The position numbers were made by a program, and so were the translations under genes. A stretch of DNA of 64,000 bases from Amphiscolops sp. MND2022 (Eukaryota), in the NCBI GenBank assembly GCA_964187785.1, contig OZ076409.1, positions 65,226,001 to 65,290,000 of the forward strand. The letters run 5' to 3'. Position 1 is the first letter of the stretch, and each line of letters begins with the position of its first letter. This document shows, one piece after another, positions 19,243 through 64,000 of this stretch. Under the pieces are notes generated by a model. It was given only the letters and a program-made list of their open reading frames with translations. It did not search any database and had not been told where the DNA came from.

Positions 19243-19373
19243 GTAGTCAGCTATGATACCCCTAGTGCCCTAAATGCAGGAGCGAAGCGAAGCGGAGCGA
19301 CGTGCCATATGACCATACCTCAATGTTGCTACTTGGCGAACGGAGCGAAGCGACCTAGCCATACAACAAATAT
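19243..19373 (+). repeat. Single arm of the SLC6-intron MITE family
   Basis: High similarity to 10890-11025 (CCCTAGTGCCCTAAATGCAGGAGCGAAGCGAAGCGGAGCG...CAACAAATATG). Confidence 0.85.
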
Positions 19374-31721: not shown

Positions 31722-31736
31722 TGGTGCCGCGACTAG
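31722..31736 (+). promoter_or_regulatory. Primer-binding site, tRNA-His-like
   Basis: TGGTGCCGCGACTAG directly after the LTR; resembles the complement of the metazoan tRNA-His 3' end (TGGTGCCGTGACTCG). Confidence 0.7.
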
Positions 31737-31905
31737 TGTGAAGTTCCCTTTGGACCTTTTTAGCAGTTTGGAGCAGTCGTCCTCTGGAGTTTTGTCATCT
31801 ACAATAACCCGGTGAGCTTGTTCCAAAAAAGCACGCTTCACGTGCGAAGGGTTTTTTTATTTTGCAATTTTAAACCATAGTTCAATTCAAGTGACAAAAT
31901 TCATT

Positions 31906-37900: not shown

Positions 37901-38939
37901 TAGGAAACTGGAATCCGAATGTTTGTTCTGCCGCCGTAGAAGAGCAAAATGTCTCCAACCCCTGATGGCCGATCTACCGACTGAACGCCTGGCATACAAG
38001 AAGCCCGCATTTACCAACACAGGTCTCGACTGTTTTGGACCTCTACATGTGACCGTCCGACGAACAACTGAAAAAAGGTGGATAATAATATTTACCTGCC
38101 TAACAACCAGAGCAATCCACCTAGAAGTTCTCCATAGTCTGAACACCAGCTCATGCATGATGGCAATTGACAGATTCGTGGCCCGTCGAGGTCGACTTGA
38201 TACTTTCTGGTCAGACAATGGAACCAATTTTGTCAGTGCCAGCAAAGAAGTCAACACCATAGAAACGCCAGCCCTTCAAGAAAAATGTGCCCAACGCCGT
38301 ATAAAGTGGAAATTCAATACTCCATCAGCACCCAATCAAGGAGGAGCTTGGGAAAGCCTAATCAAGTCATGCAAGAGGATACTTTTCACCGTTCTCGGAT
38401 CAAGCAAAGTGAAAGAAGAAGTTCTCATCACCTCAATTTGCCTAGTAGAGCAAGCAATGAATTCCAGACCTCTCGTTCCTGCAAGCTCTGATCCAACAGA
38501 TCTGAATGCCTTGTCTCCCAATAATTTCCTCAATTGTGGAGAAGTACTTCAGCCCGCAGTTTTTGCCCGAGATCCACATCACGCACACCATCGCCGAGTT
38601 TACCAGCAAGCTCAACATTATGCAGACGCCATATGGACACGTTTGCTCAAAGAATACGTGCCAACTCTAAATCTTCGACACAAATGGACAGAGACTACTG
38701 AGCCCTTAGCAAAAGGAGAACTAGTGTGGCTTGTGGAGAGTCACTCACCACGCGGAAACTACCATTTGGCCCGAGTGTGCGAGCTTCACTATGACAGCAA
38801 GGGAGTTGCAAGATCTGCTAAAATTATTACCAAGGAGGCAGTTTTGATGCGCCCTGTCAATAAATTGGTCAGATTGTGGAACGTCAGCAGCGCTACCCCC
38901 GAGGATGTTGAAAGTGACTTCCAAATTCCGCATGAATGA
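31906..38939 (+). pseudogene. gag-pol: BEL/Pao gag-pol polyprotein (Gag with three Cys/His knuckles, protease, RT, RNase H, integrase) with one stop and one frameshift
   Basis: FDGNPLDW, CPMC/CFSC/CPKQGC knuckles, LDSGS, YMDD, HVFGDAS, TIPKLEL, WSDNGTNF, GGAWE. In-frame TAA at 33685-33687 and a -1 shift at the A-run near 36363-36370. Confidence 0.93.
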
Positions 38940-39203
38940 AAACTCATGAATGAAAAACTAGTGACTTGAGACTTGAAACTGCTGAACAAATGTCTTGAAA
39001 CTGTTGAAAACTTTCTGATATCTCTAAAATTTGATGAAATTCTTTCGTTACTCCGATTTTCATCTCACAGCACAGCAAACTGACCCAGATTTCTGAGACG
39101 GGTCAAAATTCGTTGTTTTTAAATTTTCTTTGTCCCCCTCAGAAATCTGGGCCAAATCGGTAACCGGCCGTCAACTGAAACCAACGAAACAGCATTTTTT
39201 CCA
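38906..39203 (+). repeat. BEL/Pao 3' LTR
   Basis: Direct repeat of 31424-31721. Confidence 0.95.
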
Positions 39204-43073: not shown

Positions 43074-45176
43074 TATGGATTTTTAGAGTTTGTTATTCAC
43101 TGAAATTAGTATAAAGGAAAAATATAAAGAATGTGAAAACTTCATGAAAGAAATCTACGAGCAGACATCAAAAAATCGATTCAAGTCGATTCTTGTTGCA
43201 TCAATGAATAGCGAAAAATGCTTGTCAGGTGAAATGGATTCTCAAAACTGTACATGGTTCACAATATGGCGGAAATGATGACCTAAACATTCAAATGACC
43301 CTCATGCGACTCCCTCATTATATATATATAAAATGTTAATTGTGTTCCACGAACAGATTAGGGTGTGTATGCTTGCAACATGTTTTCTTCTAAGTTTGAC
43401 CCAGAACAAGAAGCGCAGTGACACTGCGATATTTTTCGTTAACTGTGACAACCGAAAACTTTCAGGGTGGATGTAGAATCATTATATTTCGCGGGTCGAG
43501 TGGCCCAAGTATGTAACTCTAACAGAAAAGGTTCTTGCTTGGTGGATCAGGTTTTGCTGAAGTGACTAGCTTAGCTAGTTTTCTCTCCAATATTCTCTTT
43601 GGCATCACCTGAGTGATCAAAAAAAGAGATTGAATAATATTATTACGACCATAAGCGACAAGGAACTAATTCTTTGTAATCATCAATCAAGTATTAATAA
43701 ATTGCCTAAGATCGGTAATGGTGATTCAGCCAACTATGCCACAGTTCCTTAAATCAGTTTCAGACACTGAATCGGTTCTATCACATTTCCCGAACTGATT
43801 CTTCTATCTCTCAAGTTTAGCTCGCGGAGCTACAGCCAACACAATCGTCTAGAGAAGTATCTTGTCTCTTCGAGGTTCAACTAGTTTTCTGCCCGACTGT
43901 TCGGTTGTGTCTACCTAAGTGTTTTCTAATTCCGCCTCATTTTGTTGATTCATCGCGCATGTCTCGGGTGGTTTCATCATGACATTCTATCATACTTGAA
44001 AATTGCTCTACATATGGGGCGTCGAAATCTTGAGTTTGCATGCTTCTACCTTGATGTCAACATCTACGCCAACGACAAATATTTCAACATCTTGTCTGAA
44101 GTTCACATTCCACAATAATGCAAGTCGCCAAAGATATTTGGAGGGTCGAGGGAGTTGCTTAATGACCTTCAAATTCGATGTGCACATGTTCTCTACAAGT
44201 GGGAGTTACGTTTTCGTCATTATGGGTGCGGTTCACCGCGAATCTTCTCGCCTGGCTGAAATGCATAAATTATCACGCAAATACACTGATTTGCAAGGTC
44301 TAAGATACGTTTTTCTATGTAACCAGGGGTCACCAGTCCTTGACCTTGAAGTTCTTTGTATTCATCCAAAGTTCCTACATGCCAAGTTAAACGGTCCCAG
44401 GGTCAATGGTTCCCGAGTTACATGATGTGCGTATCATTTGTTTACTCATGGCGGTTACCCCTGGATTGGTCCGCACGATCGGTCCCGTGTGCGTTAAAGA
44501 AACAATACTCCGCGCGCCATGTGTCGATTAAGGTATCTCCTTATCGCACAAAAGAAAATCTTCGCTCGGAGAGATCAATTTTGATCAAGCCGAATCAAAC
44601 AATTTCATCGGTCATGTCAATTCTACTTCGCTCAAACGAGTGGTAAACGCCAAAATCTGAAATTTTCACAGTGGACCTTTAAAGTTAGAGAGAAGATTCT
44701 CGCTTGAATATTCTTCACAAAAACCCGATTTTGTGATAATTTCCAGTTTTTTTAAACAAATAACAAAGGTGATTTACGCATAGGCCTTAAAAAGCGGTTA
44801 TAAACAGGAAATATCAAAAAGCAGTAGGAAACCTCTATTGAACGTTTTTTTAACCTAAACAAGAGAGAAGAATAGAACATGCAAAATAGACGGGACAAGA
44901 AACAACAGAAAAAAGACACAATCAGCGCAATTGAAACTTTACAAAGTTGAAAATCAACGGCAAATTTGGTGGTCTAAGGCTCTCCTGCTACAATAGTACC
45001 AGCAGATTTCGAGTTATTTGAAAAGAACGATATACAAAAAATGGAAAATTGATTAAATGTGAACAAAAACGTCAAATTGATCAGAAAGATTCCCGTACGT
45101 TTCAGAGACAACCAGATATTCTAGTAACGACGAGAAAAGAATAAACCACTTACGGGAATATACTGTCTTAAAGCAT

Positions 45177-47122
45177 TGTCGCAGGCTGCCGCCTGTGACG
45201 GCACTATGATTACGACAACAAGCAACGACCAAGAAGTCATACCCGGAACGCTGCCGACCTTTTAAGAATAAAACTGCTAAAACTTTGGAAACTGTTTACA
45301 TTATGTATTTTTGTTTGTATTTATTTTATTTGGTTTTTTATATTGGATGTTCAAACTAGTCTGTTAATGTTACGATTTGGGATTAGCCAAATCGGTTCGT
45401 TGATGCAGTAGCTGAATTAAATTGCAAAATTGTATTGATGCTGTAGCAAACAATAAGAGAGCAAGTTAATCGCGAGAAGGAAACGTGTTCAAGTGCGGAA
45501 ACGTCCCTTCTCGGCGATATAGCTCACCACAGTTGTGCTAGCCAATCACGTGCTGTAATTCTTGCTGTGCTATTATTGTATTTGTTAATTGGCCGGTTAG
45601 GGCCGTCTGACGAAATTCCGCTCTCGCTGCTCACTACTTTGGTCAAACGGCCGGTTCCGGCCACAAAGCAATAGTGAAGAGGGATTAACTTAGTACATCG
45701 TTGCTTTAATAATAATAATACAATTGTCCTTTCATGTAGTTTAAATGTTCATTGTTGATAATGTAAAGCATTGTTTAGTATTTGGCCGAGTAAGGCCCAT
45801 TGAACTAATATATATGGTTTCAATTGGTACTCTGGTCAAATGGTCAATTATGGCCACTTCATGCATATTTGTGTTTTATTGTTCAGTTAACCGAGTATTA
45901 ACCCAGAACCAGCATTAATTCATCCCTGAAACATGTAAAGGTGCTTACGATACTATATTATCTGTGTGATCCTAGTATACGTAAAAATAGACGGACAAGG
46001 CTATATTCCTTCACTCCACTATTGTGCTGTATGTACTCACGGAATTAAGCCCATTTCGGCTTCAGCATGAAATGTATTTTTATGAATGGGAATTCGTACA
46101 GTAGTCTTTGTGTACGATTATACATTCCATTCTCAGTGTAGTATATGATAAATCTTGTGTCGACACGTGCCTCCACTTCACTTTACGTGAGTTATGCAAA
46201 CAAAGGTATTTGTTGACACTTTGATGTACATGCCTTAATCGGCAACTCGTTTGAAGCTATCTTTTGACTATATGACCCATAAATGCCATTCCTTAGATGT
46301 CCCCGAAGGTATGTGAATATCAGGGTTTTCATCATGGAACCAATGGTCATATGATGCTATCAACCTAACTAGTTATGTATGGAATGTGACTGTCATTCCC
46401 TGAAGGGTATAAATACTGTCATCCCGTTGGGGAAATCATTAAATCATTTCGTTCTACTCTAGTTAAGTTTAATCCACAAACGGCACCGCTGTTATTTCCG
46501 TGTTGATTAATTTATTATTGATTCGGAACTGTTTCAATGCCAACCACTAGAAAACAAAAGAAAGCTAGAAAGTCTAGAGGACTTGAGATGTTATCAGATA
46601 TTGAAAATCTGGATATTATGTTAGGTGAAAACCACTTTGATAGAGGTGAGAGAAATGAAAGTGTGAATAGTAATCAAGCCGGTAGACCAGAAAGCCTATT
46701 TGGAGACGAACTTGAAAATGAGAATGAGTTCCCGAACTCAAGAAATAATGGACCAAGTCCAAATACTGAATTAGGCCATAATTCAATCAGAGAATGTTCA
46801 AGCGTTGAGATCAATAGATTGTCGAGTGAGTTAAATTCACGTATATCTCGAGAGATGGATGAAATGATGAACAGTGTCAGTGTTCAGATTCAAAGAGCCA
46901 TAAATGAGGCAATTAGCAGCCAAATTTTGCCTCAAATCCAAAATGTAGTTATGGCCGGATCGGGACAATTGACCAAAGGGGGATGGAACGTTCCGGCTGA
47001 GAGACCGGAAGGACATTCTGAAGTACTGCAAAACTTAGAACCTAAAAATAATTCTAAGAACAAACAGGCCAATGACCGTCCCAAAGACGGAGGCACAAGC
47101 ACAAACTCTCGTGCTTACGACA
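45177..47122 (+). repeat. 5' LTR (1946 bp)
   Basis: Direct repeat of 59698-61643; two substitutions found by eye. Confidence 0.95.
46408..46415 (+). promoter_or_regulatory. Candidate TATA box of the LTR promoter
   Basis: TATAAATA about 125 bp upstream of the gag ATG. Confidence 0.5.
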
Positions 47123-48240
47123 TGGTGACAGGAGAAAACGAATCTCCAATCGAAGTTCCTGAGTTTCTCACGGGACGAATCTCATCCAGAAACCATCTCG
47201 ACAGATCCTATGAGGACATTAACCTTGACACGACGATCCCAGCGCAAGAGAGAAATGCCCCGGCTACGCCAACTGACCCTATCACGCGACTAGCAGATGT
47301 CTTGACAACGATGCAGAATAGGCCGACAGCCCAACAACTCACTATACGCCCAGTCAATTCAAACACAATGACCTTTGATGGCAAGAGTGAAAAATTCGAG
47401 CTGTTCGAGGACCTGTTCCACACGATGATCAAGATGCAACCGGAAATGACGGAGCAGATGAAAATAAATCACTTCCACTCATTGCTGAGGAAGAATGCTC
47501 TCCAAACCTTCCGGAACATCAGCTCGAGCAATAGACAGACTTTAGAGGACGTATTGGTAATATTCAGACGAAAATACGTCAAACCAGAATCACAAGCAAC
47601 TGCCAAACATAAATGGCACCGTCTAGTTTTCGATCCTAACACGATGAAACTGCCAGATTTCCTTGAAGAATTAAATCAAGGGGCAGAAAAAGCATTCGGA
47701 GATCATGCACAGAAAATGATTGACAGTTTGCTTTACGCAAAACTGCCACCAAAACTGAAGCGGTCCGTAAACATGGCCAGACTCGAAAACGGCTCTTATG
47801 ACGAAATAGTTGCTCATTTAGAGAGAGAATTAGAACTAAATGCTCTTGAGGAATCAGACGACCTACCAATGGCCACAATGACCTCCTCGACAACAAAATC
47901 CAAAACTCCCCTAACTACTGGGCAAATGTCGGACATCACTTGCAACTACTGCAAGGAAAAGGGCCATATGGTCAAAGACTGCGAAAAATTGAAGAAGAAA
48001 AAGGAAAAAGATGCCCAGCAAGGCAAGCAGACTCAGAAAAAGACATATCCGGAGTGTGGCACTTGTGGCAAAAAGAACCACCCGGAAGAAAGATGCTGGC
48101 AAGGTGCTGGTGCGCATCTCAAACCCAAACGTACCAGACAAGATGACGCTAATGACGGTAACCCCAATTCAAAGGCGCAAAAACCACAAAACAAACCAAC
48201 ATCTTCCAACTCACAGACCTCATCTTCCAAGGATGAGTAA
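46537..48240 (+). CDS. gag: Gag (567 aa) with two CCHC knuckles; starts inside the 5' LTR
   Basis: TFDGKSEKFELFEDLF capsid-like motif, CNYCKEKGHMVKDC and CGTCGKKNHPEERC. Confidence 0.92.
   Translation: MPTTRKQKKARKSRGLEMLSDIENLDIMLGENHFDRGERNESVNSNQAGRPESLFGDELENENEFPNSRNNGPSPNTELGHNSIRECSSVEINRLSSELNSRISREMDEMMNSVSVQIQRAINEAISSQILPQIQNVVMAGSGQLTKGGWNVPAERPEGHSEVLQNLEPKNNSKNKQANDRPKDGGTSTNSRAYDMVTGENESPIEVPEFLTGRISSRNHLDRSYEDINLDTTIPAQERNAPATPTDPITRLADVLTTMQNRPTAQQLTIRPVNSNTMTFDGKSEKFELFEDLFHTMIKMQPEMTEQMKINHFHSLLRKNALQTFRNISSSNRQTLEDVLVIFRRKYVKPESQATAKHKWHRLVFDPNTMKLPDFLEELNQGAEKAFGDHAQKMIDSLLYAKLPPKLKRSVNMARLENGSYDEIVAHLERELELNALEESDDLPMATMTSSTTKSKTPLTTGQMSDITCNYCKEKGHMVKDCEKLKKKKEKDAQQGKQTQKKTYPECGTCGKKNHPEERCWQGAGAHLKPKRTRQDDANDGNPNSKAQKPQNKPTSSNSQTSSSKDE
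47123..47134 (+). promoter_or_regulatory. Primer-binding site, tRNA-Leu-like, within gag coding sequence
   Basis: TGGTGACAGGAG immediately after the LTR; 11/12 match to TGGTGTCAGGAG, the complement of a metazoan tRNA-Leu 3' end as I recall it. Confidence 0.6.
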
Positions 48241-48246
48241 AAAAAC
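48240..48246 (+). promoter_or_regulatory. -1 ribosomal frameshift heptamer A AAA AAC at the gag-pol junction
   Basis: Correctly phased in the gag frame; the -1 frame is open from here into the protease ORF. Confidence 0.7.
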
Positions 48247-51200
48247 TAACTTCGCCACGACTCCAATACAACCAACTAGTATCTGTCCGACAATATATCA
48301 GATCGGACCCTCCAACGCAAACTTTCCACCAATACAACCAACAATTGATGGGCTATCCCTCTGTTGTCTGGCAGCAGCAGATGGAAAAAGCTACCATTAT
48401 TACTTACAATAATACCCATTTGTTCCAAAAACCAATTCCTGTATGGGATCCTGATCACACATCTGCTTTCAATAGCCGATTCAGGCCCATTCCCTTGATA
48501 GATGATTACAACCCTACCTACATAGACCCCGATTACGGACGAGATCCCTATTGGGATACGGAACTCTACAACCAAGATCTGCTACAATTCCAATACGTCA
48601 TTGATGATATCGAACTCTACAACAAATCAGCCCATGAAAATCCTCCAATCACCCACAACAAGAAGACCAGAGCATTAATCGAAAACTGGCAAATGAATGA
48701 TGGTACGAACCATCCGGTGTTCCCAAACCCATTGGGGACCGAGAACCATGACAACAATACTGAACCCATACAACAATCACTACTAGATGAGAAACAATTC
48801 CAAAATGTCCTAATCACAAGGGACGGCGAACCAGACTGTATACCTTTGTCAACCAACATCAATCTCAAATGCAAGAAACGCATGTTGTATTTCCCAATGG
48901 ACTTTGGGGAATTGACCATAGATGGACTCATCGACACTGGAGCGCTGTCCAGTGCAATTCCTGAAATGGACCTCCGGAAAATCCGACTTTTATCTCCACA
49001 ATCTGTTATCCGGGAAGGCCCGCCTCCGAATTTCCAAATAATGGTCGCTAATGGGCAATTGGAAACTCCCAAGAGTACCATAGAGCTCAAATTTGAAGTT
49101 GGTGACATCGAGTTTCACGAAATTTTCATAGTCATGGAACACCTGACAGGTCCGATCATTGGACTAATGTTCCTTCAACGAAATCATACAGTTCTGGACA
49201 TGAGACAAGGAATACTAAACTTCCCATTCTTTTCAATGCAGCTCAAAACAGCTGATCATAAATATTCAAATGTACTAGAACCAATTCTCAACCCCACTGA
49301 AATAACCATTCCGCCAAACGACAGAGTCCTAATTAGGACCAATTCCCTACTGTATCCTGAAAACGCTGTCACTGGGATTTTACAACCGAGCGACCTTCTA
49401 CATGAAGAAGGCGACATCACCTTTTGCCCAGCTTTGGTCACTCTGAATGATGGCAACATATCGATACCTGTGAATAATTTCACAGACCACCCCTATAAAC
49501 TCAAAAAGGGACTCCATATTGCCAATTTCTCTGTCATGACGCCAGAACAAATGAAACATGTCAAACCGGTAGACCCGGCATCAACCTGGCATTTGTTACA
49601 AAACGACTAAGAGCAAGCAGCCCATTATGTCAGTAGCCTGATCAAGACGAACAGAAATTCACAAAACCCCGAAAACTACTGGTTCCCAACTCCGGAAAAT
49701 CCAGGGAATCCAGAAGAACACACTCCAATCCAGAAAAGAATCCTCCGCGAGCTACAAGCCCTACAGGATCTAGAATCCCTTGATCCCACGAAAGACGAGG
49801 AATCTAGGGAAAAATTCTTAAGAAATTTTGATTGGAAAGACTCCACCCTAACCCCGGAAGAGAAAACCAAAATTGAAGAATTGCTAGTGGAATTTCACGA
49901 CATTTTTGCGAGACACAGATTTGATATAGGCATGAATGAGGAATTCAAGGTGAAATTGACACCTAAGGACGATTCCCCAGCCTACAGCCAAAGCCTCCCT
50001 GCGCCAATAAACTTGAAAGAGGACATATTAGTCGAATTAGCCATGCTCCACAAATATGGCATAATAACTACTTTACCGTTCTCGAAATACGCCAGCCCAA
50101 TATTCGCACAAAAGAAACCAAATGGGAAGCTACGACTTCTGGTTGACTTGAGAAAAATCAACAACCTTATCTCGGATGATTATATCAACAATAATCACCC
50201 TGTTAGCACCTTGGTTGACGCTGCCCAACACTTGGCAGGCAAAAAACTGTTCTGTAAATTAGACTGTTCACAGGCATACCACTGCCTACCAATGGCCGAC
50301 CAACGCTCAATCGAAATGTTGGCTTTCAATTTTGCCAGCCGTACATTCGCGTACAGACGCTTAGCACAAGGCCTTAGTCGGTCACTATCCGCATTCTCAA
50401 GTTTCATGAGGGAATATCTCGACAAAGTCATTAAAGCGGATCAGTGCGCCCAGTATGTGGACGATATCGGCATCGCAGCCAATGATGTTGAACACCTCAT
50501 AATGAACCTGAGAGCAACATTCAAATGTATTCAAGAAGCAGGCCTTAAGTTGACAATGCACAAATGTCACTTTGGTGCAAAAGAAATTGATTTCCTCGGA
50601 CGGACTATTACCCCACAAGGCGTCAAACCCCAGAAACAGAACGTACAAAACTTTCTGGAAAAAACCAAATTCCCAAAGTCGAAAAAGGCTTTGCAGCGCT
50701 ACTTGGGGTTCTTGAACTACTACAGGAATTATGTCCCAAGACTATCCGAACGCCTTGCTCCATTCTACAAGATGCTCAAAAGTGACGAAAAAGTCCTAGT
50801 ATCGAAAGAATTAGTCCAACAATTCGAAGAAATCAACAAGGCACTCGACAAATGTTGTGACTTAGCCTTACAACAACCCATTCCTAACAAGCAGATTGCA
50901 CTCATGACAGATGCAAGTTTCGGAGCTGCAGGATACGCAGTACTCATTGAAGATGATCCGAGTCAGAAATTCACGTCAATCCGCAAATCATATGCACCGG
51001 TCGCTTATGGTTCAAAAACCTTCACCCCGGCCCAGATAAAGATGTCAATTTATGCAAAAGAATTTCTTGCGATTTATTTCGCATTCAAAGAATTTGGGCA
51101 TATTTTCTGGGGAGCGCCGAAACCGGTCATAATCCTAACCGACAACAAAGCAGTAACAAGATTCTTCCAAACGAAAATAATACCCCCAGCCCTGTGGAAT

Positions 51201-53450
51201 GCATGCGATTATGTGATCCAGTTCAACTTTGTCATAGCGCATATCCCGGGAGCACAGAACACAGCAGCTGACTATTTGTCCCGATTAGAGGCAGATCCAA
51301 AAGACAAATTAGTCATGAAGATCCGTGAGGACGTACAAACTCTACCAATTGAAATTAATGTTCAATCTGCAGGGGTATCACAGGAAGAACAAATATTCTA
51401 TACAAATGATGACGACGAGACAGAGGAACAGTATTGGGCAAGAAAAGAAGCAATCAGGAAAAATCCAATGACTGATGAGCCCACTGTTACTATAGAAACT
51501 CTGTCAACCAATTTGGTCAAACAACAACCAGACATCCAGGTCCGATTAAGGAAAACAAACCAGATAATCATCGAGCAGTCCAAAGATGCAGTATTGCAAC
51601 AATTGAAGGCAAAGCTCCTTCATGAAGACTATTCAGAAAACATGCTGCAACAGGATGCCCGATATAGACACTATGCAAATAATCTGGAACGAATTGTACT
51701 CAAGGACGAAATCCTGACGAGGCAATATTTTGATGAAACAGGGAATGTTAAATACCATCAAATTCTACTCCCGCAACACTTACTCTGGGAATTGCTTCAA
51801 TCCCTTCACGGGACAGCGCATAAACATCCCGGGATTTCAAAAATGCTGCAGGAAATCAGACAAAAGTATTACTACCCTAGCATGGCTAAACACGTCAAAA
51901 AGTGGGTAGAAGGGTGTGAACAATGTGCCAGAGACAAGAGAGTCCCTAACGCAACGATCACACCTGAGCTGCTCAACTTGCCCGAATGGGACCTTGGACC
52001 TGAAGACGCCATGCAGATTGACCTATTGCCGAATCTTCCCCCAAGTGGAGGGTATGAAAATGTCCTAACGGCAATTGATGTTTTCTCCAGATATTTATTC
52101 GCTTATCCCCTTACAGACGCATCAGCGATCAATGTGGCAAAAGCGCTCATTGACATAATGACCAAGCATGCATATCTCCCAACGACTCTTATTACTGATA
52201 AGGGTACTGCATTCACTTCTACGATTATTGCGGAGGTTACGCAAATTTTGGGCATTACACTCAAATGTGCAACGACAAAGCACCCGCAAACAATTGGGAA
52301 ATTAGAGCGGACCCATGCCTCATTAAAGACAAACCTCAAAATGGCATGTGGGGAATACCGCCGACAATGGCATAAATATTTGCCATTAGCAGTACTTAAT
52401 CATAATACGAGTTATCATGCCAGTATTGGTTGTGAGCCAACGAGAGTATTCCATGGCAGAATTCCCTATAACATTCTGGATCACAAGCTTGGAAATAATC
52501 CAAACGAAAGGATCAACCCTACAACCGAATTTGCAGAAGAAATCCAAAACCGGACAAAAATCCTAATTGACAAAACGAAGCAGAACATTATGCAGTCGTA
52601 CATCAAGTACAAAGAATATTACGACCGCAAAGCAAAAGCTGCTCCATTGGAAGAGAATGATTACTGTTTCGTCTTACAGCCGAAAGCGGATCATCAAGGA
52701 TCAAAAATTCCATTCCGCGATTACCGTTGGGTTGGACCATTTGTAGTCCAAAAGGTTTTGCCAAATGAAAACTACATAGTACGAAGGATCAATACGAACA
52801 AAACTCAAATTTTGCATCGCATTCGCCTTAAAAAGTTTATTCCCAATCAACCGCTTGAGGACAATTTCCGAGAACAACGTCTGCAGCCAGACGAAGAAAT
52901 TGTCATTCCGCAAGACGACCTATACGTCATAGCGTGGGAAACAGATTTTGGAGAGCAGCTAGTTACACGAGACAGCGAGCCTATTCCGACTAGCGCGCCG
53001 AATGGCGAACAGCCGAACACGGCAGAAACGAATGCAAATGACGTAAACGAGACCGAAGCGGATTACATAATCACGCGAGAAGAATTAAACAACGACAACG
53101 CGGCACACAGCCGGAATAAACGCTTAAATGATGACGTCACTGAAAGAAATAAAGCTACTGCAGTGACAGAAAATACCAAATCTGATTGGCCGAATCCGGC
53201 CGTTTCCCCAAAAAACCAAGAAAATTCTTTGCCGAATACGGCAGATGGACCGGAAAATGATGAAACTTTTTCAGAAAGAAATTCAATGAATGAAAACGAT
53301 GCACAAACCTCTCCAAAAAGGGGGGATGATATTATCGTGCCCGAAATATCCGAAAGCGATACTAGAAATGAAAGTCTGAGCCCTAGAGGAGGGAAATATA
53401 ATCTCAGGCCTAACCCTAATCCAAACTACTCAGAAGACTTCAGATACTAA
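48246..53450 (+). pseudogene. pol: Pol (protease, RT, RNase H, integrase) with a single in-frame stop at 49608-49610
   Basis: LIDTGA, RLAQGL, YVDD, TDASFG, ADYLSR, H..H...CEQC, QIDL/ITDKG/GKLE, WVGPF. ORFs 48345-49610 and 49881-53450 share one frame. Confidence 0.95.
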
Positions 53451-53693
53451 AGATTGAATTCTTCCCGAAAATGGGAGTTCTTTCTTATTATCTTCTTTTC
53501 CGTTTTTTTTCAGTCCATTTAGTATCTTTTGAATAATGGGACGAATGAAGGACCCCTCTCAAAATAAATAAATACGGGGGTGAAAGATACAAACAATGAG
53601 GAAACAGAAATCAAGGGCAAACGAAAGAATAAATACAACAAAGAAATTAACAAAGTTTACAGTTCGTAAGTACATAAATACATATGTACAGAA

Positions 53694-56600
53694 TCAGGCC
53701 TTAGTGGAGGAATCTTTATTGGGGCTCCCAGCAACAGAGGAAGCAGACGATCGTGAGCCGCTCCTACCTCTCCTTCGCTTCTTACTACTGGGAAACTTCA
53801 CAGCAGACTGATCACACACAGTACTGCTCTCTCCCAAATCTTCCTGGACTGAAACCCGTTTTGGAGCAGACTCAGCCTTGCGGTAAGTGGACAAGAGGGA
53901 TTTGTAAATTCCCGACCGACCGAAAGTATCCACATAGGCCCAAGGATCATAGTCGGAAGAGAAGGCAGAACGACCAAACGATGTGGAGAGAGTCGAAAAT
54001 TTGGCCAGATTGGAGTCCTCGCTGCTCCGGACGACAGAACCAATGACATTAGCCATATAACTCTGACAAGGCAGGATAAGGTCAGTGAACCGGCTCTGTC
54101 CACCAGCGGTAGTAACTCCCCCAAAGACGACATCTGGATAGCTGGGACGTACACAAACAGCTCAATTTGAAGAGGTATAGGAGATGGGAACGTTCATGGA
54201 GAAACTCGAGCCCCATCAGGAACTCGATCAAATCGGCAGACGTACTGGTGATGTCGAAATCAGGCCCGTAGGCGGTTCGGAGGTGATCCAATAGCTGGAT
54301 ATATTGATCCCGACACTGGGACTCATTTGAATCGTCCACCCAAGATCGGACTGCGAAGCTACTGTACAACACCTCGAAATGTCGTAAGGCTACATCCATT
54401 GGCCTCTTCAGCATAATAAAGGGGTCAAAAGCAGCAAGCCCCTTCACCAGATTAGTGCTGAGCCCAGTTCTTTGATGGATCCCATTGATTACAAACTGGA
54501 TGTAATGCTGGCTATCCTTGACGAAATCAGCCTTTACCGTCTCAGCAGTAGCTTGTATGGCAGCGCGCTCTGATTTCTTGCCGAAATGAAGACCTTCGGC
54601 TCTTGCTTTGCATGCGGCTGAAACCTTACTCGCTAGCTTAAGCCGGACAAGGTACTCGTCTCCTGAAAGGAAGGTGACCTCACTCGTCTGAAAGCGCAAG
54701 AGGAGAAACCAAGCGTTTGCTAGGGGCGCAGTGTCAGGGGTGTATATACGGGAACAGAGCAGGCTGAGAAATCGGCTTACTTCTCCACACAAGTAGAAGG
54801 ACGAATCGCGTCGATACTGTAGATTGACTGAGAAACTGGTGACGACTGAAAACAAAACTGTTGTCCAATTCAGGATGATAGACCCTCACTAAGGCTGCGA
54901 CAGATTATACCTACAATCGTTGACGATCCTACTGAAGAATTCCAGTTTGACGACGAAGAATTCGTCGCATATCACCGACCACTCAAAGCTCTGCACCTGG
55001 AACAAGACTATCATCAACCCTGTGATAAAACTGGACCCTACTGATCAGATGAAGAAAATTGATCTATATTCTCATGTGACTTAAAGGAGAAAAGATGAGA
55101 TCTAACCCTTCCTCGGGATCCTTGACCTTCTTGCAATGGCGCATGTGTGGTCAGGTACCGCACCACGTTCTTCCATTCGGCGATGAGTTCTCGACAAAGA
55201 ACAGGCAAGGTTGTCACTTCGAGCTTACAACTGGTCACAGCCTGGAAAGTACAATAAAGCCGCATGAGGATTCCAGACGAATAGGATGAAAGAGCCCTAC
55301 ATAAGCCTATGACTCCGATGAGAGAAATGCAAGGAAACTACTTACTTTGGTAAGTTCTGGGCTGCGGAGAACCCAATCTTCCGTGAGGGACCCACCCAGA
55401 GAAACCATCAAGGCTTGAAGGACGGAGAAGAAGTCTATCTTCCCAAAAACACTATAACTCGTCTTGTGCAGGAGATTGGGCAGGCTGAAGTGTTCGAAGC
55501 GCAGACAGCTTTGAACCCCCTGTTTGTAGTACTCTGACTCGTCGATGGCCCTGGGTAATTCAGAGTGACATCCAGAACAGGCTACGATCCCAGGTTTGGT
55601 AGATATGGCAGAGAGGAGTCGGGACAAAGACCCAAGTTCTCCTGTCACGTCTGTAGTGATCTGTGAGCTGCGACATATGAAGACTCTACAAAGCTCAGAG
55701 CCATTCCAGAACTTGATGGACATGTGCTTGTAGACTCCTTTGGTCTCGAACTCAAGAGCGAAGCACTGCTGAGTGTTGACATTCTCTGCTATGTCCTCAA
55801 GGCAACAGACGAAGAAGTGTTGGAAGATCGCCTAGAAACAAAACCTTTTGAAACCTTAGAAGGAATGGAACCTAAGTGGATGAAACAAACAAATGCTTAC
55901 CGACAATCTCTCTTCTCCCCAATCAAAGTCGTTGAAGGTAGCCTGATGATTGGTAAATGACCCCATCCGGGACCACAGATTTCGCAGAACCGTCAGATCT
56001 CCTTGGCTCTTGATGAAATCTCCAACCAGGCAGAGCTGAGTCTTGGTGCGAGATTCCGGGGTAACCAAAGCAGTGGTTGATCCTTTGACGAAGTCCTCAT
56101 AAAAGGGGAAGCGTTCTCCTATGTCCACAAGTTCAACGTGGATAAATTTGGGCAGCTCCTTAGCCAGCTCAACTTTGGACAACAACTTCCCATTGCCACC
56201 TCTGACTCTGTGTTGCACCTTCCCTGTCACCGGATCCGTGCTCCGCAAATGTTCATAGCGCCAGCGTTGGTCGCGTCGCAGATGGCGCTCCGTTCGGTGG
56301 TGTCTCAATATCTCGTAAGGGCCCTTGGACTTGATGGAGAAGTTCTTCTTGCAGATATGACACCAAACCATATGAGGATTATGGAGTGGGTCAGCAGGGC
56401 CTGAAATGAAGGACCTGGTCCATCCGATCTTTGCGAAGAACTCTTCTCGCATAGGGACACCTCGTTTGGAGAGATTCCGGTTGCCTCTCTTCTTCTTGGA
56501 CTTGGACGAACCGGCAGCGGCACGTTCTAGGACCTGGTCCCTGACTTCAAGGAGCGTGGCATCTTGACTGCTGTATTCTGGAGTATCAGCCTGAGAATCC

Positions 56601-57907
56601 AAGCCAGACGCCTGCAGAACTAGCGAACCATGTGTCTCAGCGGGTTTCTTGAAGGACTTCGCTATCAAATCCAGCTCAGTAGCATTGTCGCTTTCCCCAT
56701 AATATGAAGAATCTCCAGTGTCTTCCGAACTCGACGATCCGGCAACCCTCTCCCTTGACGTGACTTCCCCTTCAGAGTCACTCCCACTAGAGTCTCCAAT
56801 ACTACTGGGACCCGGTGTCTGAGCCCGCCTCCCTGCAAAGAAATGAGCAGTTCGCGATGGGGCGACAGTAGGTTTTCCACGGACTGCATCTGTGACCATT
56901 TGTTCCATGGTCGAAAAGGACCGGCTGAGAGTCTCGTCGGTGAGGACTCTAAGGAGATGGTACACCTGTGGCTCAGTAAATGACACAGTGGTATGACCTA
57001 CTGGAAGTCGTACAGAGGGGGACTCGTCGAAGTATTCTTTGAGGATAGCCCGACTTCTGCCCGAGAGGTGGGGTGGTTCCCGGTGGGACTCAGCCTGTCC
57101 AGGGGCCTGTCTACTAGTACCAGGGACAGGAAGTTCCGAAGCGGTCTCATCTCCTCCTTCAGTTTCAGAGGCATGTGCGAAGGGAGTGTAACCATACAAG
57201 GCCACAGGAACCACCACGCTAGATTGGTCAGTAGCTCCTTCATCCCCACTAGGGTCAGTTAGGTACCGAATTTTGCATTCTCCTCCAGGAAGTGGGGGAG
57301 CGTCGCCAATGGATGATGCGGCATCGTAGTCCTGATGTGCCAGGGAGTCACTCTCAACGTTGGCATCGGATTGGGTAACATCCACAAGTTCAGCAAATTG
57401 GGACCCAGAACTCTCGACTACTCGCAGAGCAGACTCTAGGGCAGACAAATTAGCTGTTGGAGCCTCCCCCATTTCGGTAACCAAAGGGGTGCTTGCCCTC
57501 CTAGTCTCCCCAACGTTTGAGGCGGACGAATCCTCCTGGACACCAGGGTCCGTACCCTGACTTGGATCGAGCTGTGTGGCTTCTTGTTGAGTTCGGTCTG
57601 ATGTCTGAGAACTCTCTAGCTGTCGGACCATATTCTCGGCATAAATAGTCACGTCCAAATCACTGTCTGCACTATGAATGGAGGTGGCTTCATCGGGTCG
57701 ACTTTCATTCTTCTTTTCGTCAGGATGGATGCTGAGTGTGGTTTGGGACGTATCAGGATGTGGGATTTGCGATCCCATCTCAGTTGGAAGACTAACTATC
57801 GGGACAGTTGTAGAAGGGTTGGCTGATGTGCTGGCAATTTCAGTTGTCTGATTCTCTAAACGAAAAGAGATAAAGTTTGGCGGTATGCTTCCTCGAAAAG
57901 AATCCAT
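53694..57907 (-). CDS. Antisense multi-exon accessory gene (about 1250 aa): disordered N-terminus, BED-like zinc finger, degenerate hAT-transposase-like body; one frameshift near 54150
   Basis: VWCHICKKNFSIKSKGPYEILRHHRTERH. Predicted GT-AG introns 55832-55900, 55242-55345, 54997-55106, 54846-54914 and probably 54688-54780 join the minus-strand ORFs in frame. Confidence 0.75.
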
Positions 57908-59003
57908 TCTACCGCATTAGAAATCTTCCGGAAGTACTTGAGAATTTGAACAAAATGTGCTATCACGCGCTTATTAGTGGAAACAGGAAGCTTATTATGA
58001 ACGAAGTCTAGCCCTGATCAAGCTAAACTAGTTCAATATATGAAAATCAGACCAACCTGTGTTCGAAGACATGTTCCCTCAGTGTTGTTGTTCCAACGGA
58101 AGTTGTTTGTGCTGAGAAGAAGACTTTGTAGAGCTGAATTGACTACGACAGGGACAAAAGGAAATCTGGGATACTCCGGAGAGAAGAGCTGGAGGAAGCA
58201 GTTGTGTAGTTGTGGACACACAAGGATGAATGACGGTTAGATAAATGCAAATAGCAGAAGCAGATATGAATGATCAGAAATGGAATTGGCTTAGAACTTT
58301 AATGTAAAGGAATTGAAGAGTTGGAGTTCGTGGCTGAAGATTATTACCAGACTAATATTATGGGATTATTTACATATTTATTCTGTACATGGAGTCTGCC
58401 AGCGAAATGTACAAAGATTACTTCATTATTTACAACTTATGGAATTATTGGCCGGTTACGGCCGTTTACCCTATTTCGGTTTACCATCTCGTTCCATTTT
58501 GTTTGTTGTCCTAATCGGGACTTCCGTTATTTTAGTTACTCAAATTGTTATTTCCGCCATTTTGAATTATTTTAATTTATCATTTTCGCCATTTTATTAC
58601 TTAATTTTTCATTTTATCGGAGCTTAACTCTGATTGGCTGAAGCCATGTTGAAAGAATTTAGCGGCGTGCGCCGTTAATAGCCTTCAAGCGACCCGTTAA
58701 TTACCCACTTGAGATGGAGAGAATTGACGTTAACAACTCAAGCGTCGTTCACACCTCTTCAGGCGATGGCGTTGATGACGAGTAAACATCGGTATATCAA
58801 AGGCGGCCAACTAATTATGGAATTCCATTCAGGAATGTTTATGTCGGATCAGGACAATTTACCGAAGATTCAACCGCCGAAAACGAATTGCCGGGAAAAA
58901 GCCCGAGTCGGCTAAATTCTCAAATTTGTTGGGTTCATTCTATCTCAAACTTTGACTCTGACTAGTTGCCTCCTCAAGCTTCAAGATAGCTAAAAAACTC
59001 ATA

Positions 59004-59786
59004 ATGAGCAAGTACAACCTGGCGAGAAAATTATTCAACTTGGACTATGATTCTGATGAATCTAACGAATCTGTCATCTACATATCTAGTAGTGAGAGTG
59101 AAGCCTCAGATTGGGAAACCGATTATTCCACTGATACTGAACAACTGGTAGCCAGGATCGAGAGAGAGGTAATCTCCAGCCCCATGTTAACAGGGGGCCG
59201 CATTATGACTGTAGACTTGCCCAAAGAAGAAGAAGATACAGAAGCTGGCCCAAGCTCCAGACAGATGCAGGCGGACGTTACCCCGAAGTTGGACCACAAA
59301 TACTTCGATAAAGAAATGTGTTATGCTCCTCCAAAGAAGATAGGGAAATCTCGGATAGAGCTTTGCAAAACTCTACTTCCTGTCACGGAATCACCACTGT
59401 CACCGCCTCCTCATGAGAGAGGACCGTCTGTGGACACACCGCTAGTAGTGGCTGATTCAGGATTCAGGGCTTCATACCACATTCAAAACACGAGGCCGTA
59501 CGAGAACGTGAGCGAAACACGTTATACCGGATGTATGGTCTGCGGCCGCTCAGTAGATGCGATCAAGAAACAACGAGTCGACTGGTACATGAACAGATCT
59601 ACACCGAGAGATGAGCCAGAATTCATAACGAAGCTGAGGAGAGAAGCCTACGAAAACGGATTGAATGCAGGTTCGTTTCTTTTTCTTGCACCCGCAGTGT
59701 CGCAGGCTGCCGCCTGTGACGGCACTATGATTACGACAACAAGCAACGACCAAGAAGTCATACCCGGAACGCTGCCGACCTTTTAA
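59004..59786 (+). CDS. Accessory ORF of unknown function (260 aa); its last 29 or so codons lie in the 3' LTR
   Basis: ATG-initiated intact ORF with an acidic Ser-rich N-terminus and a CMVC motif; AATAAA directly after the stop (59788-59793). Confidence 0.7.
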   Translation: MSKYNLARKLFNLDYDSDESNESVIYISSSESEASDWETDYSTDTEQLVARIEREVISSPMLTGGRIMTVDLPKEEEDTEAGPSSRQMQADVTPKLDHKYFDKEMCYAPPKKIGKSRIELCKTLLPVTESPLSPPPHERGPSVDTPLVVADSGFRASYHIQNTRPYENVSETRYTGCMVCGRSVDAIKKQRVDWYMNRSTPRDEPEFITKLRREAYENGLNAGSFLFLAPAVSQAAACDGTMITTTSNDQEVIPGTLPTF

Positions 59787-61643
59787 GAATAAAACTGCTA
59801 AAACTTTGGAAACTGTTTACATTATGTATTTTTGTTTGTATTTATTTTATTTGGTTTTTTATATTGGATGTTCAAACTAGTCTGTTAATGTTACGATTTG
59901 GGATTAGCCAAATCGGTTCGTTGATGCAGTAGCTGAATTAAATTGCAAAATTGTATTGATGCTGTAGCAAACAATAAGAGAGCAAGTTAATCGCGAGAAG
60001 GAAACGTGTTCAAGTGCGGAAACGTCCCTTCTCGGCGATATAGCTCACCACAGTTGTGCTAGCCAATCACGTGCTGTAATTCTTGCTGTGCTATTATTGT
60101 ATTTGTTAATTGGCCGGTTAGGGCCGTCTGACGAAATTCCGCTCTCGCTGCTCACTACTTTGGTCAAACGGCCGGTTCCGGCCACAAAGCAATAGTGAAG
60201 AGGGATTAACTTAGTACATCGTTGCTTTAATAATAATAATACAATTGTCCTTTCATGTAGTTTAAATGTTCATTGTTGATAATGTAAAGCATTGTTTAGT
60301 ATTTGGCCGAGTAAGGCCCATTGAACTAATATATATGGTTTCAATTGGTACTCTGGTCAAATGGTCAATTATGGCCACTTCATGCATATTTGTGTTTTAT
60401 TGTTCAGTTAACCGAGTATTAACCCAGAACCAGCATTAATTCATCCCTGAAACATGTAAAGGTGCTTACGATACTATATTATCTGTGTGATCCTAGTATA
60501 CGTAAAAATAGACGGACAAGGCTATATTCCTTCACTCCCCTATTGTGCTGTATGTACTCACGGAATTAAGCCCATTTCGGCTTCAGCATGAAATGTATTT
60601 TTATGAATGGGAATTCGTACAGTAGTCTTTGTGTACGATTATACATTCCATTCTCAGTGTAGTATATGATAAATCTTGTGTCGGCACGTGCCTCCACTTC
60701 ACTTTACGTGAGTTATGCAAACAAAGGTATTTGTTGACACTTTGATGTACATGCCTTAATCGGCAACTCGTTTGAAGCTATCTTTTGACTATATGACCCA
60801 TAAATGCCATTCCTTAGATGTCCCCGAAGGTATGTGAATATCAGGGTTTTCATCATGGAACCAATGGTCATATGATGCTATCAACCTAACTAGTTATGTA
60901 TGGAATGTGACTGTCATTCCCTGAAGGGTATAAATACTGTCATCCCGTTGGGGAAATCATTAAATCATTTCGTTCTACTCTAGTTAAGTTTAATCCACAA
61001 ACGGCACCGCTGTTATTTCCGTGTTGATTAATTTATTATTGATTCGGAACTGTTTCAATGCCAACCACTAGAAAACAAAAGAAAGCTAGAAAGTCTAGAG
61101 GACTTGAGATGTTATCAGATATTGAAAATCTGGATATTATGTTAGGTGAAAACCACTTTGATAGAGGTGAGAGAAATGAAAGTGTGAATAGTAATCAAGC
61201 CGGTAGACCAGAAAGCCTATTTGGAGACGAACTTGAAAATGAGAATGAGTTCCCGAACTCAAGAAATAATGGACCAAGTCCAAATACTGAATTAGGCCAT
61301 AATTCAATCAGAGAATGTTCAAGCGTTGAGATCAATAGATTGTCGAGTGAGTTAAATTCACGTATATCTCGAGAGATGGATGAAATGATGAACAGTGTCA
61401 GTGTTCAGATTCAAAGAGCCATAAATGAGGCAATTAGCAGCCAAATTTTGCCTCAAATCCAAAATGTAGTTATGGCCGGATCGGGACAATTGACCAAAGG
61501 GGGATGGAACGTTCCGGCTGAGAGACCGGAAGGACATTCTGAAGTACTGCAAAACTTAGAACCTAAAAATAATTCTAAGAACAAACAGGCCAATGACCGT
61601 CCCAAAGACGGAGGCACAAGCACAAACTCTCGTGCTTACGACA
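59698..61643 (+). repeat. 3' LTR (1946 bp), including a second copy of the gag N-terminus (61058-61643)
   Basis: Direct repeat of 45177-47122. Confidence 0.95.
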
Positions 61644-64000
61644 AGCATCAAAAACTAATGATCAGATTACTTCAATTGACGAAAATGGACCAATAGGTAA
61701 AAATGAGAAGTTTCAAGAATTTCAAAGACCTATTCGAAAATGTCTCCGAAAGACATTGTCTCACGCAGAGAAGTTTGAGGTAAAAGGGTAGGTTAGAAAG
61801 AATTTCTAAAGGTCATTATCCACGGGACACTGAAGGTGATCCGATACCATGTTGAGAATCAGGTGAAGTTACCAGCGAACTAAAAGAAGGCCAATCGGAT
61901 TTTGATTGAGAAGAAAGAGAAATGAGGCCACGAGAAACGAGGCCTCGGAATTTGCTGCCATTCAAACTCAACCGGATGAACGGCACGAAGAGGAATCCGA
62001 GGTCAGTTAATTTAGACTCAATCGATTCCTCCCAATTATAATCGTTGTTGAACTGTTCTGCTGCTGAACCGGAGCAGAATGTTTTGCAAAAAAGTTTTTG
62101 CTGCAGAGTTCTTCAGCTTTTTTCCCAGCTGAAGTGTGCTCGAAAGCTTTCTTCAAAGAGTTTATTGCAGATTTCAGAGCCGCCGCGTTTTGTAAGATCA
62201 CCTATAGCTGCACACACATTATCATTACTCTGGCCTTTTATAAACTTTCTAGCGTTGTTCACTCTAGTGTTTCTCCTTGAGATGACTTTTCCCAACATAT
62301 TTGTCACAGGGTAAGAAGCAAACTACATGTTTTATTGCAGTATAGCGACATTGCAAAACTGTTTGTCAACTTTTTTCTAACTAATCCAGATAGTGTACAT
62401 GCGACTAACGTATTTCCAGCAAATCAATAACCTAAACTGAGCATACAGTTGATTACATACATATCATTCAATAAACGTGACAGTTAATTAAAAGTTCGGC
62501 ACAGTTTTTCACTCTGACTCACGTTTCGTTGAGTTGCTTTTCCTCAATAAATTTGCTGAGCGTTGCCCTTTATATCATCTTGCTTAAGAACGAGTGGAAG
62601 AATTGTCAAAAAGCATAGAGCAATCAACGTGTGATGTGCATTGTCCTGGAGACAAACGTATTGTCGGAAACTGAAAGTGGGAGTAGTTTTGAAAACACAC
62701 GTATTGCAATAAAAACACACTAACTGAAGTTACCACTGTCATTTTGGTAAACACTCTATTTTTTTCGGTATAATGTACTGTCAGACGCCTGAGCATAATA
62801 TGTCGTGGCTGCGGTATCAACTTGCCTAGTTACTTCACCATTCTGTTATATCAACTTCTCCATCAACGATTTGAGAACAGAGATTTCGCTCTGTAATTTC
62901 CCAAGCCTCTCTTCAATTTCACGCTGTGTTTGGTGCGTGATCGAAGGAGAAGAAGAGTTTTGTTGTCCTTGTTGATTTTCAATAATATCGGTGCTATCTA
63001 TGTTGTGTAACGGCAAGCTGTTATCGGTCGCTTAACACGTTAACAGAGGTGGAGGAACCTGCAGAAATGGGTGAATCGCTCGGGACAGGCGCCCATCGCC
63101 ACAGATCCATTTTGCCTCCAGGGGTGAAATACGTCCCGGGGCCGCGGGTGCTTCGACGAATACTGTCCAACCGGTCCTAGTCTTTGATTGCTAATAGTAA
63201 CGGGCATCTTTCTGGCTCTCTAAAGACCACCGCTTAACTAGCATATAAAAACAATGCCAAGAATAAGGTAAATTTCCAGTTCCAGGGTGACATGTGAATA
63301 AGATCTAAAATTGGGGAATAAGATCTAAACTAGCGCTAGCGCTACTGAATACAGCCAAAATCACTGAAAATACATGAAAACAGGCACGAATATGGCAAAC
63401 CACACAGCTAAAAAGCTGGGGCGCAGGGGCTCCAAGCACCAAACAAGGATCTTTAGGCGAAAAGACTCATTTTTACGGTTTCCGCTACATAGGGTAGCAT
63501 AATGCTGAAAATCGATAAAACCGGTGTTAGCACCTCAAAAAGAGTCTATTTTCGGATGTTCTTGCCGTCTCTGGCTTCTGTCATGGCGGCGCGCCCGTAT
63601 TTTTGCTCGTTCTTGCTCTTTGTTGTCGAAGTACCTGCCAATTTCGTGGAAACAGCGAAAAGAGCAATCACATGCTCAGTGCCACGTCACACATCGGATT
63701 AGAATTTTTGACAAAATTTCTGAACATGTCAAAGTTGCAAAATCGGTTGATATTGCTGTACCAGAGCTTGCCGTTACATCACTCCCCGGGCTTTATGCAT
63801 GACGTCCCTGTCATGCGGAGAGGCTGGCATTGAATACATCGCCACATCATGAGTGCAATCCACGGGGGTCTCAAACTGGTGATGTTGCAACGGTTCAGTG
63901 GCACTGTCATCTTTCGCTGATTGGGCAACCATGAGGTCTTGCTTCTTGCCATCCAGAGAACCTGCATGGTCCACAAACTGTTGAAACAGAGCTAGCTCGA

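What the first reader, a model, noticed from the sequence alone, without database searches (positions are those of the whole stretch)
46537..47134. Gag begins 195 codons inside the LTR and reads through the LTR end and the PBS
Seen: the ATG at 46537 is 586 nt before the LTR end, and the frame continues through CGACA|TGGTGACAGGAG, so the integrase attachment end and the PBS are protein-coding. Established: yeast Ty1 gag overlaps its LTR by only a few codons, so this overlap is far larger. Consequence (inference): every 3' LTR and solo LTR carries a promoter plus a 195-aa open frame that runs into flanking DNA. Here that gives ORF 61058-61696, a potential source of fusion genes or a truncated-Gag restriction factor.
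Basis: partly seen in the sequence, partly recalled or inferred. Interest (0 to 1): 0.7.

Follow-up and report, generated by a model that had tools for sequence, protein, structure and literature searches.

The report
Retrotransposon Gag starting inside its LTR
A high-copy animal jumping gene keeps the first third of its shell-protein gene inside the long repeat at its ends, so each spare copy of that repeat carries a ready-made 195-amino-acid reading frame; the layout is real and shared across the family, but nothing yet shows that the spare frames are expressed or do anything.

Summary
Confirmed. The window holds a young 16.5-kb Ty3/Gypsy element (45177-61643; 1,946-bp LTRs; AGCAT target duplication). 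Gag opens at 46537, 586 nt inside the 5' LTR, at the first ATG after a TATA/Inr pair, and reads through LTR end and PBS. This is a family trait: 118 of the 120 best capsid-anchored relatives carry LTR-encoded residues in frame, and 13 subfamilies keep the frame open at about 60% identity. In 99 of 99 placed stand-alone copies the foreign tail starts with a residue that an A-first codon can give, which fixes the LTR end at the same codon phase. The LTR part holds a basic N-terminus and a helix (83-140) predicted to self-associate (0.72, best control 0.01). Most likely it is the translated oligomerising N-terminus of Gag, lying in an unusually long U5. Spare LTR frames (1,071 clusters) have tails of chance length. 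One fuses to a lectin-like frame, as chance allows. Fusion genes and restriction are unshown; no RNA or relatives' DNA was available. A 260-codon ORF also crosses the 3' LTR's left edge. New variant of a known kind.

The parts
45172..45176 (+). 5' target-site duplication AGCAT
   Evidence: same 5-mer at 61644-61648
45177..47122 (+). 5' LTR, 1,946 bp, TGTCG...CGACA
   Evidence: 2 differences from the 3' LTR
46408..46414 (+). candidate TATA box (TATAAAT)
   Evidence: position and motif only
46436..46449 (+). candidate initiator(s) TCATT/TCATTT, first A at 46438 (30 nt after the TATA start), overlapping ATTAAA 46438-46443; inferred U3/R border
   Evidence: Inr TCAT(C/T)T described for Zam LTRs in PMC3601003; not mapped by RNA
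46537..47121 (+). LTR-encoded Gag residues 1-195: basic N-terminus, conserved block 1-33, predicted helix 83-140, variable linkers
46783..46956 (+). predicted helix, residues 83-140, self-associating in the model
   Evidence: pLDDT 83-89 over residues 91-130; 0.72, best control 0.01
47123..47134 (+). primer-binding site TGGTGACAGGAG, read as M-V-T-G
   Evidence: one base from the PBS of relative L012 over these 12 nt; tRNA-Leu type is recalled, not tested
46537..48240 (+). gag ORF, 567 aa, capsid-like region and two CCHC knuckles; closes a few residues earlier than most full-length relatives
48237..53450 (+). pol in the -1 frame: protease, weak dUTPase-like match, RT, RNase H, integrase; in-frame stop at 49608-49610
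54082..57907 (-). antisense accessory frames: 683-aa ORF 57907-55856 and further open stretches, probably exons of one gene
   Evidence: cluster of 77 members; no family match
59004..59786 (+). 260-aa ORF whose last 28 codons and stop lie inside the 3' LTR; AATAAA follows at 59788
59698..61643 (+). 3' LTR; no purine tract directly before it
61058..61696 (+). 3' LTR copy of the 195-codon frame with a 17-residue tail from flanking DNA
61644..61648 (+). 3' target-site duplication AGCAT

Best explanation
The 195 codons are the true, translated N-terminus of this family's Gag, and they lie in an unusually long U5. Shown in sequence: LTR limits, the open frame, its retention across subfamilies and the fixed codon phase of the LTR end. 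Inferred: RNA starts near 46438, R is short (the ATTAAA sits at the start site), and a 99-nt leader with no ATG leads to 46537. Ribosomes then make a Gag whose first third is a basic tail plus a self-associating helix and flexible linkers, ahead of capsid and two knuckles. Reverse transcription copies R-U5, so these codons end up in both LTRs and in every solo LTR. Selection acts on them through full-length Gag; the spare copies are mostly by-products with random tails.
For: First ATG after the TATA/Inr pair (ATG list). 117 of the 120 best N-terminal hits (of 258) align from residue 1; D195 is present in 119 and M196 in 118. Capsid-anchored search, blind to the N-terminus: 118 of the 120 best (of 4,196) carry LTR-encoded residues in frame, 93 with 185 or more before the junction motif. 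The cluster that starts at the junction Met is a mix of fragments; 3 of 15 listed start there. 13 subfamilies at mean 60% identity keep 189-198 residues, with blocks at 86% and 78% between linkers at 43% and 28%. 99 of 99 foreign tails begin with T, N, S, R, I, K or M against a background of 0.44. Helix 83-140. Three-copy model scores 0.72 against a best control of 0.01; this mark was reached by 21 of 30 solved pairs and 0 of 23 single chains, and on eukaryotes by 17 of 29 pairs (animals 7 of 16) and 0 of 30 single chains; runs agree in at least 93% of contacts, pLDDT at least 81.
Against: No RNA, ribosome or peptide data, so start site and start codon are unmapped. The ATG at 46537 has T at -3, and 6 of the 72 new rows printed start at Met18, so Met18 may also be used. 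No DNA of close relatives, so no dN/dS. Over the whole 195 residues the substitutions are not more conservative than single-base changes would give (-0.51 against -0.32); only the two blocks are (+0.60, n=25; +0.29, n=55), and the capsid control also scored low (-0.63, n=48), so this test is weak. Both protein samples see only open frames and cluster representatives. The complex score is outside its calibration (three copies), and passes were rare (1 of 7) for eukaryotic pairs with no older solved relative. The whole-Gag model is poor (mean pLDDT 41.6) and has no fold match at E <= 0.001.
Confidence: 0.82

Rival explanations
1. Besides serving in Gag, the LTR peptide made from the many solo and 3' LTRs joins full-length Gag through its helix and, lacking capsid, spoils particle assembly in proportion to copy number. 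This adds to the best explanation rather than replacing it.
For: 1,071 clusters of stand-alone LTR frames. The helix lies wholly inside the LTR part and self-associates in the model (0.72, best control 0.01; counts as above). Each spare LTR carries the candidate promoter, leader and ATG. Truncated Gag restricts Ty1 (PMC8458377).
Against: No expression data. Tails show no sign of selection. The family is very numerous (clusters of 281, 180 and 138 members). Ty1 p22 works through the capsid C-terminal domain, which this peptide lacks. Spare-LTR transcripts would have an early stop and no element-borne poly(A) signal downstream (inference), so they may be unstable or silenced.
Confidence: 0.15
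2. The LTR frame is a productive source of host fusion genes.
For: P0015 joins the 197-residue LTR part to a 262-residue tail with a C-type-lectin-like stretch (Pfam E 0.009, below the cut-off; langerin E 8e-5).
Against: P0015 is a single-member cluster. A tail of 262 or more codons occurs at 0.7% of random starts in this window's non-element DNA, so several are expected among over 1,000 frames. Of 27 longer stand-alone or truncated proteins scanned, only P0015 gave a host-type domain, leaving aside weak YpjP matches on the LTR helix itself. It may be an insertion that simply broke a lectin gene.
Confidence: 0.08
3. Gag is really made from the Met at 47122 (or by splicing), and the upstream frame is an untranslated remnant or is conserved for a DNA/RNA signal.
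For: The junction Met is nearly invariant (118 of 120). A distant relative, L012, has the same A|TG phase but stops within about 16 codons upstream in that frame. R-U5-PBS folded at z -4.6 in one test.
Against: Any CA|TGG junction makes an ATG, so that Met's conservation needs no translation. Linkers at 28-43% identity remain free of stops and keep their length in 13 subfamilies. Many ATGs precede 47122 on the inferred RNA. In 360-nt windows the coding U5 folds no better than pol (z -1.2 and -1.3 against -1.0 and -0.8).
Confidence: 0.07
4. The repeat is mis-bounded: the true LTR is shorter, and a duplication or assembly fault makes gag look LTR-borne.
For: There is no purine tract before the 3' repeat, and an ORF crosses its left edge.
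Against: Target duplication, TG/CA ends, 5-bp inverted ends and a PBS all fall at these limits, and 99 of 99 independent foreign tails break at the same base phase.
Confidence: 0.02

Closest known systems
Yeast Ty1 (Ty1/copia)
   Same: PBS lies inside the GAG frame (PMC4974528, passages); gag starts in the LTR (recalled).
   Different: Other superfamily; overlap about 13 codons (recalled) against 195 here, which includes a whole predicted helix.
Ty1 p22/p18 copy-number control
   Same: An element-encoded piece of Gag that could co-assemble with Gag.
   Different: p22 is the C-terminal half with the capsid CTD, made from an internal transcript (PMC8458377, passages). The LTR peptide is the N-terminal third with no capsid, and no function is shown.
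Plant CRM group A centromeric retrotransposons
   Same: [quoted passage not shown]
   Different: There it is the end of the polyprotein and a PPT is present; here it is a separate ORF, no purine tract is seen, and the main overlap is gag in the 5' LTR.
Large invertebrate and plant gypsy elements with extra ORFs (Burro, Ogre, rotifer elements)
   Same: Long LTRs (Ogre 1.9-6.5 kb), extra ORFs, dUTPase-like domain between protease and RT (PMC6431247, PMC5408684, passages; weak match here, E 0.04).
   Different: The passages I saw describe no gag start inside the LTR.
C. elegans Cer1 GAG/CERV
   Same: A long Gag N-terminus with a leucine zipper and basic motif, shared with a second product (PMC10309623, passages).
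   Different: The sharing is by splicing, and positions 957 and 1175 are called 5'UTR beyond a 492-bp LTR, so its gag starts after the LTR.

Membership tests
Ty3/Gypsy LTR retrotransposon | Two direct LTRs with TG...CA ends and a target-site duplication | tested here: met
Ty3/Gypsy LTR retrotransposon | pol order protease, RT, RNase H, integrase | tested here: met
   RT matches Ty3 RT at E 1e-27 and foamy-virus-type chains slightly better
Ty3/Gypsy LTR retrotransposon | gag with capsid-like region and CCHC knuckle | tested here: met
   zf-CCHC E 0.003, DUF1759 E 2e-5, both below cut-off; feature hits 0.93-0.94 to Retrotrans_gag/Ty3_capsid/zf-CCHC clusters
Ty3/Gypsy LTR retrotransposon | PBS next to the 5' LTR | tested here: met
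   TGG-starting site at 47123; the host tRNA could not be checked
Ty3/Gypsy LTR retrotransposon | Polypurine tract before the 3' LTR | tested here: not met
   pyrimidine-rich stretch ending CAG; nearest run of 11 purines is about 50 nt upstream. A common rather than defining feature, but unexplained
Named gypsy clade (Mag, Osvaldo, Gmr1, Mdg3 and others) | Placement in an RT tree with reference elements | not testable with these tools
   no named reference set was available; all protein hits were unnamed
Errantivirus or env-bearing element | env ORF | tested here: not met
   the extra ORFs have no Pfam or NCBIfam match; a remote env is not excluded
p22-type Gag restriction factor | Contains the capsid C-terminal domain | tested here: not met
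   the LTR part ends at residue 195; the near-invariant capsid region begins near 260
p22-type Gag restriction factor | Expressed and lowers transposition in trans | not testable with these tools
   needs RNA and bench work

The most novel reading that the evidence does not exclude
By placing Gag's oligomerising helix inside the LTR, the element turns every solo and 3' LTR into a gene for a capsid-less Gag piece that co-assembles with full Gag. This would be a copy-number brake that grows stronger as recombination leaves more solo LTRs, an N-terminal counterpart of Ty1 p22. The fast divergence of the LTR part (60%) on a near-constant capsid (95%) could then reflect escape from the brake.
Probability: 0.15. 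Interest if true: 0.8.

Novelty: new variant of a known kind. Interest (0 to 1): 0.5.

Why it matters
LTRs are treated as non-coding in annotation and dating. Here 30% of the LTR is under protein constraint, including the integrase attachment end, and gag models drawn from the internal region alone would lose a third of the protein. Both LTR edges fall inside reading frames, which bears on how LTR limits move in evolution. Over a thousand clusters of promoter-plus-ORF modules make the truncated-Gag and fusion ideas directly testable in the host, and they will also inflate gene counts in automatic annotation.

Tried and rejected
No host genome is held, so no copy-level DNA, dN/dS or tRNA check. 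RNA runs: none was listed; this is no evidence on expression. Gag in metagenome contigs and RT in viral contigs: no relatives. RT in metagenome contigs gave 14 short, mostly decayed loci at 62-73% identity; I found a clear LTR/PBS junction only in L012, of five loci examined. ESM Atlas: no useful hit for residues 1-195 (best 0.75). Foldseek on the whole-Gag model: nothing at E <= 0.001. Weak YpjP and ZorA matches on the helix were set aside as generic helical hits. The RNA-structure signal did not survive windowed controls. The bacterial promoter scan does not apply. Conservation of Met196 was rejected as evidence of initiation because CA|TGG creates it. Literature: ten full-text searches gave no report of a long gag start inside a gypsy LTR, but the tool cannot search phrases with 5', holds only open-licence papers and no Repbase or GyDB entries, so absence from print is not established. 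I have an unverified recollection that some Repbase gypsy entries have ORFs starting in the LTR. No supplements were opened; element tables in them could hold such cases.

Full report
Element. Self-comparison finds one long direct repeat. Its limits are 45177-47122 and 59698-61643: 1,946 bp, two differences, TGTCG...CGACA ends, and AGCAT on both flanks. Between the LTRs lie gag (to 48240), pol in the -1 frame with protease, a weak dUTPase-like match, RT, RNase H and integrase, antisense frames, and a 260-aa ORF. The domain order and RT matches make it a Ty3/Gypsy element. This copy is recent but probably not autonomous: pol has an in-frame stop at 49608-49610 and gag closes a few residues earlier than most full-length relatives. 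The host looks like an animal (an SNF-family transporter ORF nearby); no genome is held.

Observation. All coordinates hold. The ATG at 46537 is 586 nt before the LTR end; the frame crosses CGACA|TGGTGACAGGAG as Y-D-M-V-T-G; and 61058-61696 is the 3' LTR copy with a 17-residue tail. An open run of 195 codons has probability 7e-7 at this composition, and this frame alone has element-like codon use. A TATAAAT at 46408 is followed 30 nt later by a TCATT initiator-like site that overlaps ATTAAA, and there is no ATG between these and 46537. I infer a 99-nt leader, a short R and a U5 of about 650 nt that is mostly coding. This is motif reading, not mapping.

Family evidence. A search on residues 1-200 gave 258 proteins of 311-993 aa; of the best 120, 117 align from residue 1, 119 have D195 and 118 M196. 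That sample is biased towards the extension, so I searched again with the capsid alone: of the best 120 among 4,196, 93 have 185 or more residues before the junction motif, 14 have 150-184, 7 have fewer, 4 more start in the LTR part but have a variant motif, and only 2 start at or after the junction. The clusters behind those two are mixtures of fragments, not a short-Gag subfamily (15 members listed of 74 and of 46). Seventy-four full-length rows fall into 13 subfamilies. Residues 1-195 are 60% identical between them (49-79%) while the capsid is 95% identical; blocks 1-33 and 88-143 hold 86% and 78%, the linkers 43% and 28%, and the length stays 189-198. Stops make up about 6% of possible non-silent single-base changes here, so 401 distinct substitutions with no stop are hard to explain without translation, even allowing that only open frames can be seen. 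Against this, the substitution-quality test was positive only in the two blocks and failed on the capsid control, and no dN/dS could be run.

LTR end. The stand-alone search gave 1,071 clusters of 116-371 aa. Of the 120 listed, 99 reach the junction and go on into foreign sequence, 11 continue into gag and 10 could not be placed by the motif (a stricter alignment placed 85). All 99 tails start with T, S, N, R, I, K or M, the residues an A-first codon can give, against 44% in later tail positions. So the LTR ends at the same codon phase in subfamilies as far apart as about 60%. Several weaker hits at 42-55% identity end their match in Y followed by such a residue, which suggests the same layout further out; that is by eye only. 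One distant relative with DNA, L012 (RT 68%), has a PBS with the same A|TG phase but stops upstream in that frame, and its helical-looking pre-capsid stretch lies after the PBS. It is a single decayed copy, so it only hints that the layout is limited to this lineage.

What the LTR part encodes. A basic N-terminus, a conserved short block, a long helix at 83-140 that is the only confident part of an otherwise poor model, and variable linkers. Hydrophobic period is 3.75-3.9. Three copies of residues 80-145 score 0.72 against a best control of 0.01, parallel and in register; runs agree in at least 93% of contacts, pLDDT at least 81. The mark was reached by 21 of 30 solved pairs and 0 of 23 single chains, and among eukaryotes by 17 of 29 pairs (animals 7 of 16; 1 of 7 without an older relative) and 0 of 30 single chains. 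The job is outside the two-copy calibration and I tried no other copy number. It supports self-association and does not show it. No family or Atlas match explains this part.

Spare LTRs do carry the frame. Their tails look random: median 17 residues and 14 of 99 at 50 or more, against 14 and 11% for random starts in the window's non-element DNA. One longer fusion, P0015, adds 262 residues with a C-type-lectin-like stretch, but it is a single sequence and 0.7% of random starts give such a tail, so it shows opportunity, not selection. [quoted passage not shown] It survives only as poisoning through the helix, at about 15%. No RNA could be examined.

Second overlap. ORF 59004-59786 runs 28 codons and its stop into the 3' LTR, with AATAAA directly after. 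All 15 listed members of its 105-member cluster cross the edge alike, though these are over 90% identical. No purine tract precedes this LTR. Both LTR edges thus lie in reading frames. One reading is that priming sites moved inward and the LTR swallowed coding sequence; the other is that the frame grew upstream from the junction ATG. I cannot choose between them.

Prior work. Passages only were read, by term search: PMC4974528 (Ty1 PBS within GAG), PMC8458377, PMC3059260 (CRM coding region enters the 3' LTR), PMC3601003, PMC6431247 and PMC5408684, PMC10309623. PMC7175516, PMC7055915, PMC6317226, PMC11302176, PMC8282616 and PMC4402516 gave nothing on gag starting in an LTR. Ten searches found no report of this layout in a gypsy element, with the limits given under Tried and rejected. 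The scan's own index had no look-alike by sequence, place or words.

Verdict. The feature is real, family-wide and best read as a coding U5 that carries Gag's oligomerising N-terminus (0.82). A coding LTR end and PBS are known from Ty1; the scale and domain content here are the new part. New variant of a known kind, interest 0.5, rising to about 0.8 if the spare-LTR peptide proves to be a copy-number brake.

Noticed in passing
window 59004-59786 and 59660-59697: A 260-aa ORF with an acidic N-terminus and a CxxC motif ends inside the 3' LTR, with AATAAA right after its stop. The DNA before the LTR is a pyrimidine tract ending CAG, like a splice acceptor, rather than a polypurine tract; the plus-strand primer is unexplained.
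   Followed up: partly
window 57907-54082, minus strand: Antisense accessory gene, probably spliced: a 683-aa ORF with a C2H2-like motif plus further open stretches; 77-member cluster; no Pfam or NCBIfam match. A hAT-transposase-like origin is my impression only.
   Followed up: partly
Gag relatives P0001-P0120 and P0384-P0455: LTR-encoded residues diverge to about 60% identity while the capsid stays 95-100% identical, which suggests LTR exchange between subfamilies or fast change in the LTR part.
   Followed up: partly
P0271: The LTR frame runs straight into the peptide encoded by an LTR's left end, pointing to a head-to-tail LTR junction in frame.
   Followed up: no
P0015: LTR frame fused in frame to 262 residues with a C-type-lectin-like stretch; probably an insertion into a host lectin exon.
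   Followed up: partly
window 31424-39203: A BEL/Pao element with 298-bp LTRs (one difference) and a broken polyprotein; its ORF starts about 185 nt after the LTR, so it does not share the layout.
   Followed up: partly
window 9376-10866, minus strand: An uninterrupted 496-aa sodium:neurotransmitter symporter ORF (Pfam SNF, E 6e-118).
   Followed up: no
window 328-4611: Tandem duplication of about 2.14 kb at 99.5% identity.
   Followed up: no
window 10792-11441 and 19228-19374: Nested inverted repeats (136 and 51 nt) around a 27-nt tandem unit, with a third arm copy 8 kb away; MITE- or foldback-like.
   Followed up: no
window 45500-45860: A stretch of U3 folds better than shuffles (z -3.9, 12 shuffles), unlike six other windows tested.
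   Followed up: no
window 14269-15531: Integrase fragment of another LTR element (rve, Integrase_H2C2).
   Followed up: no
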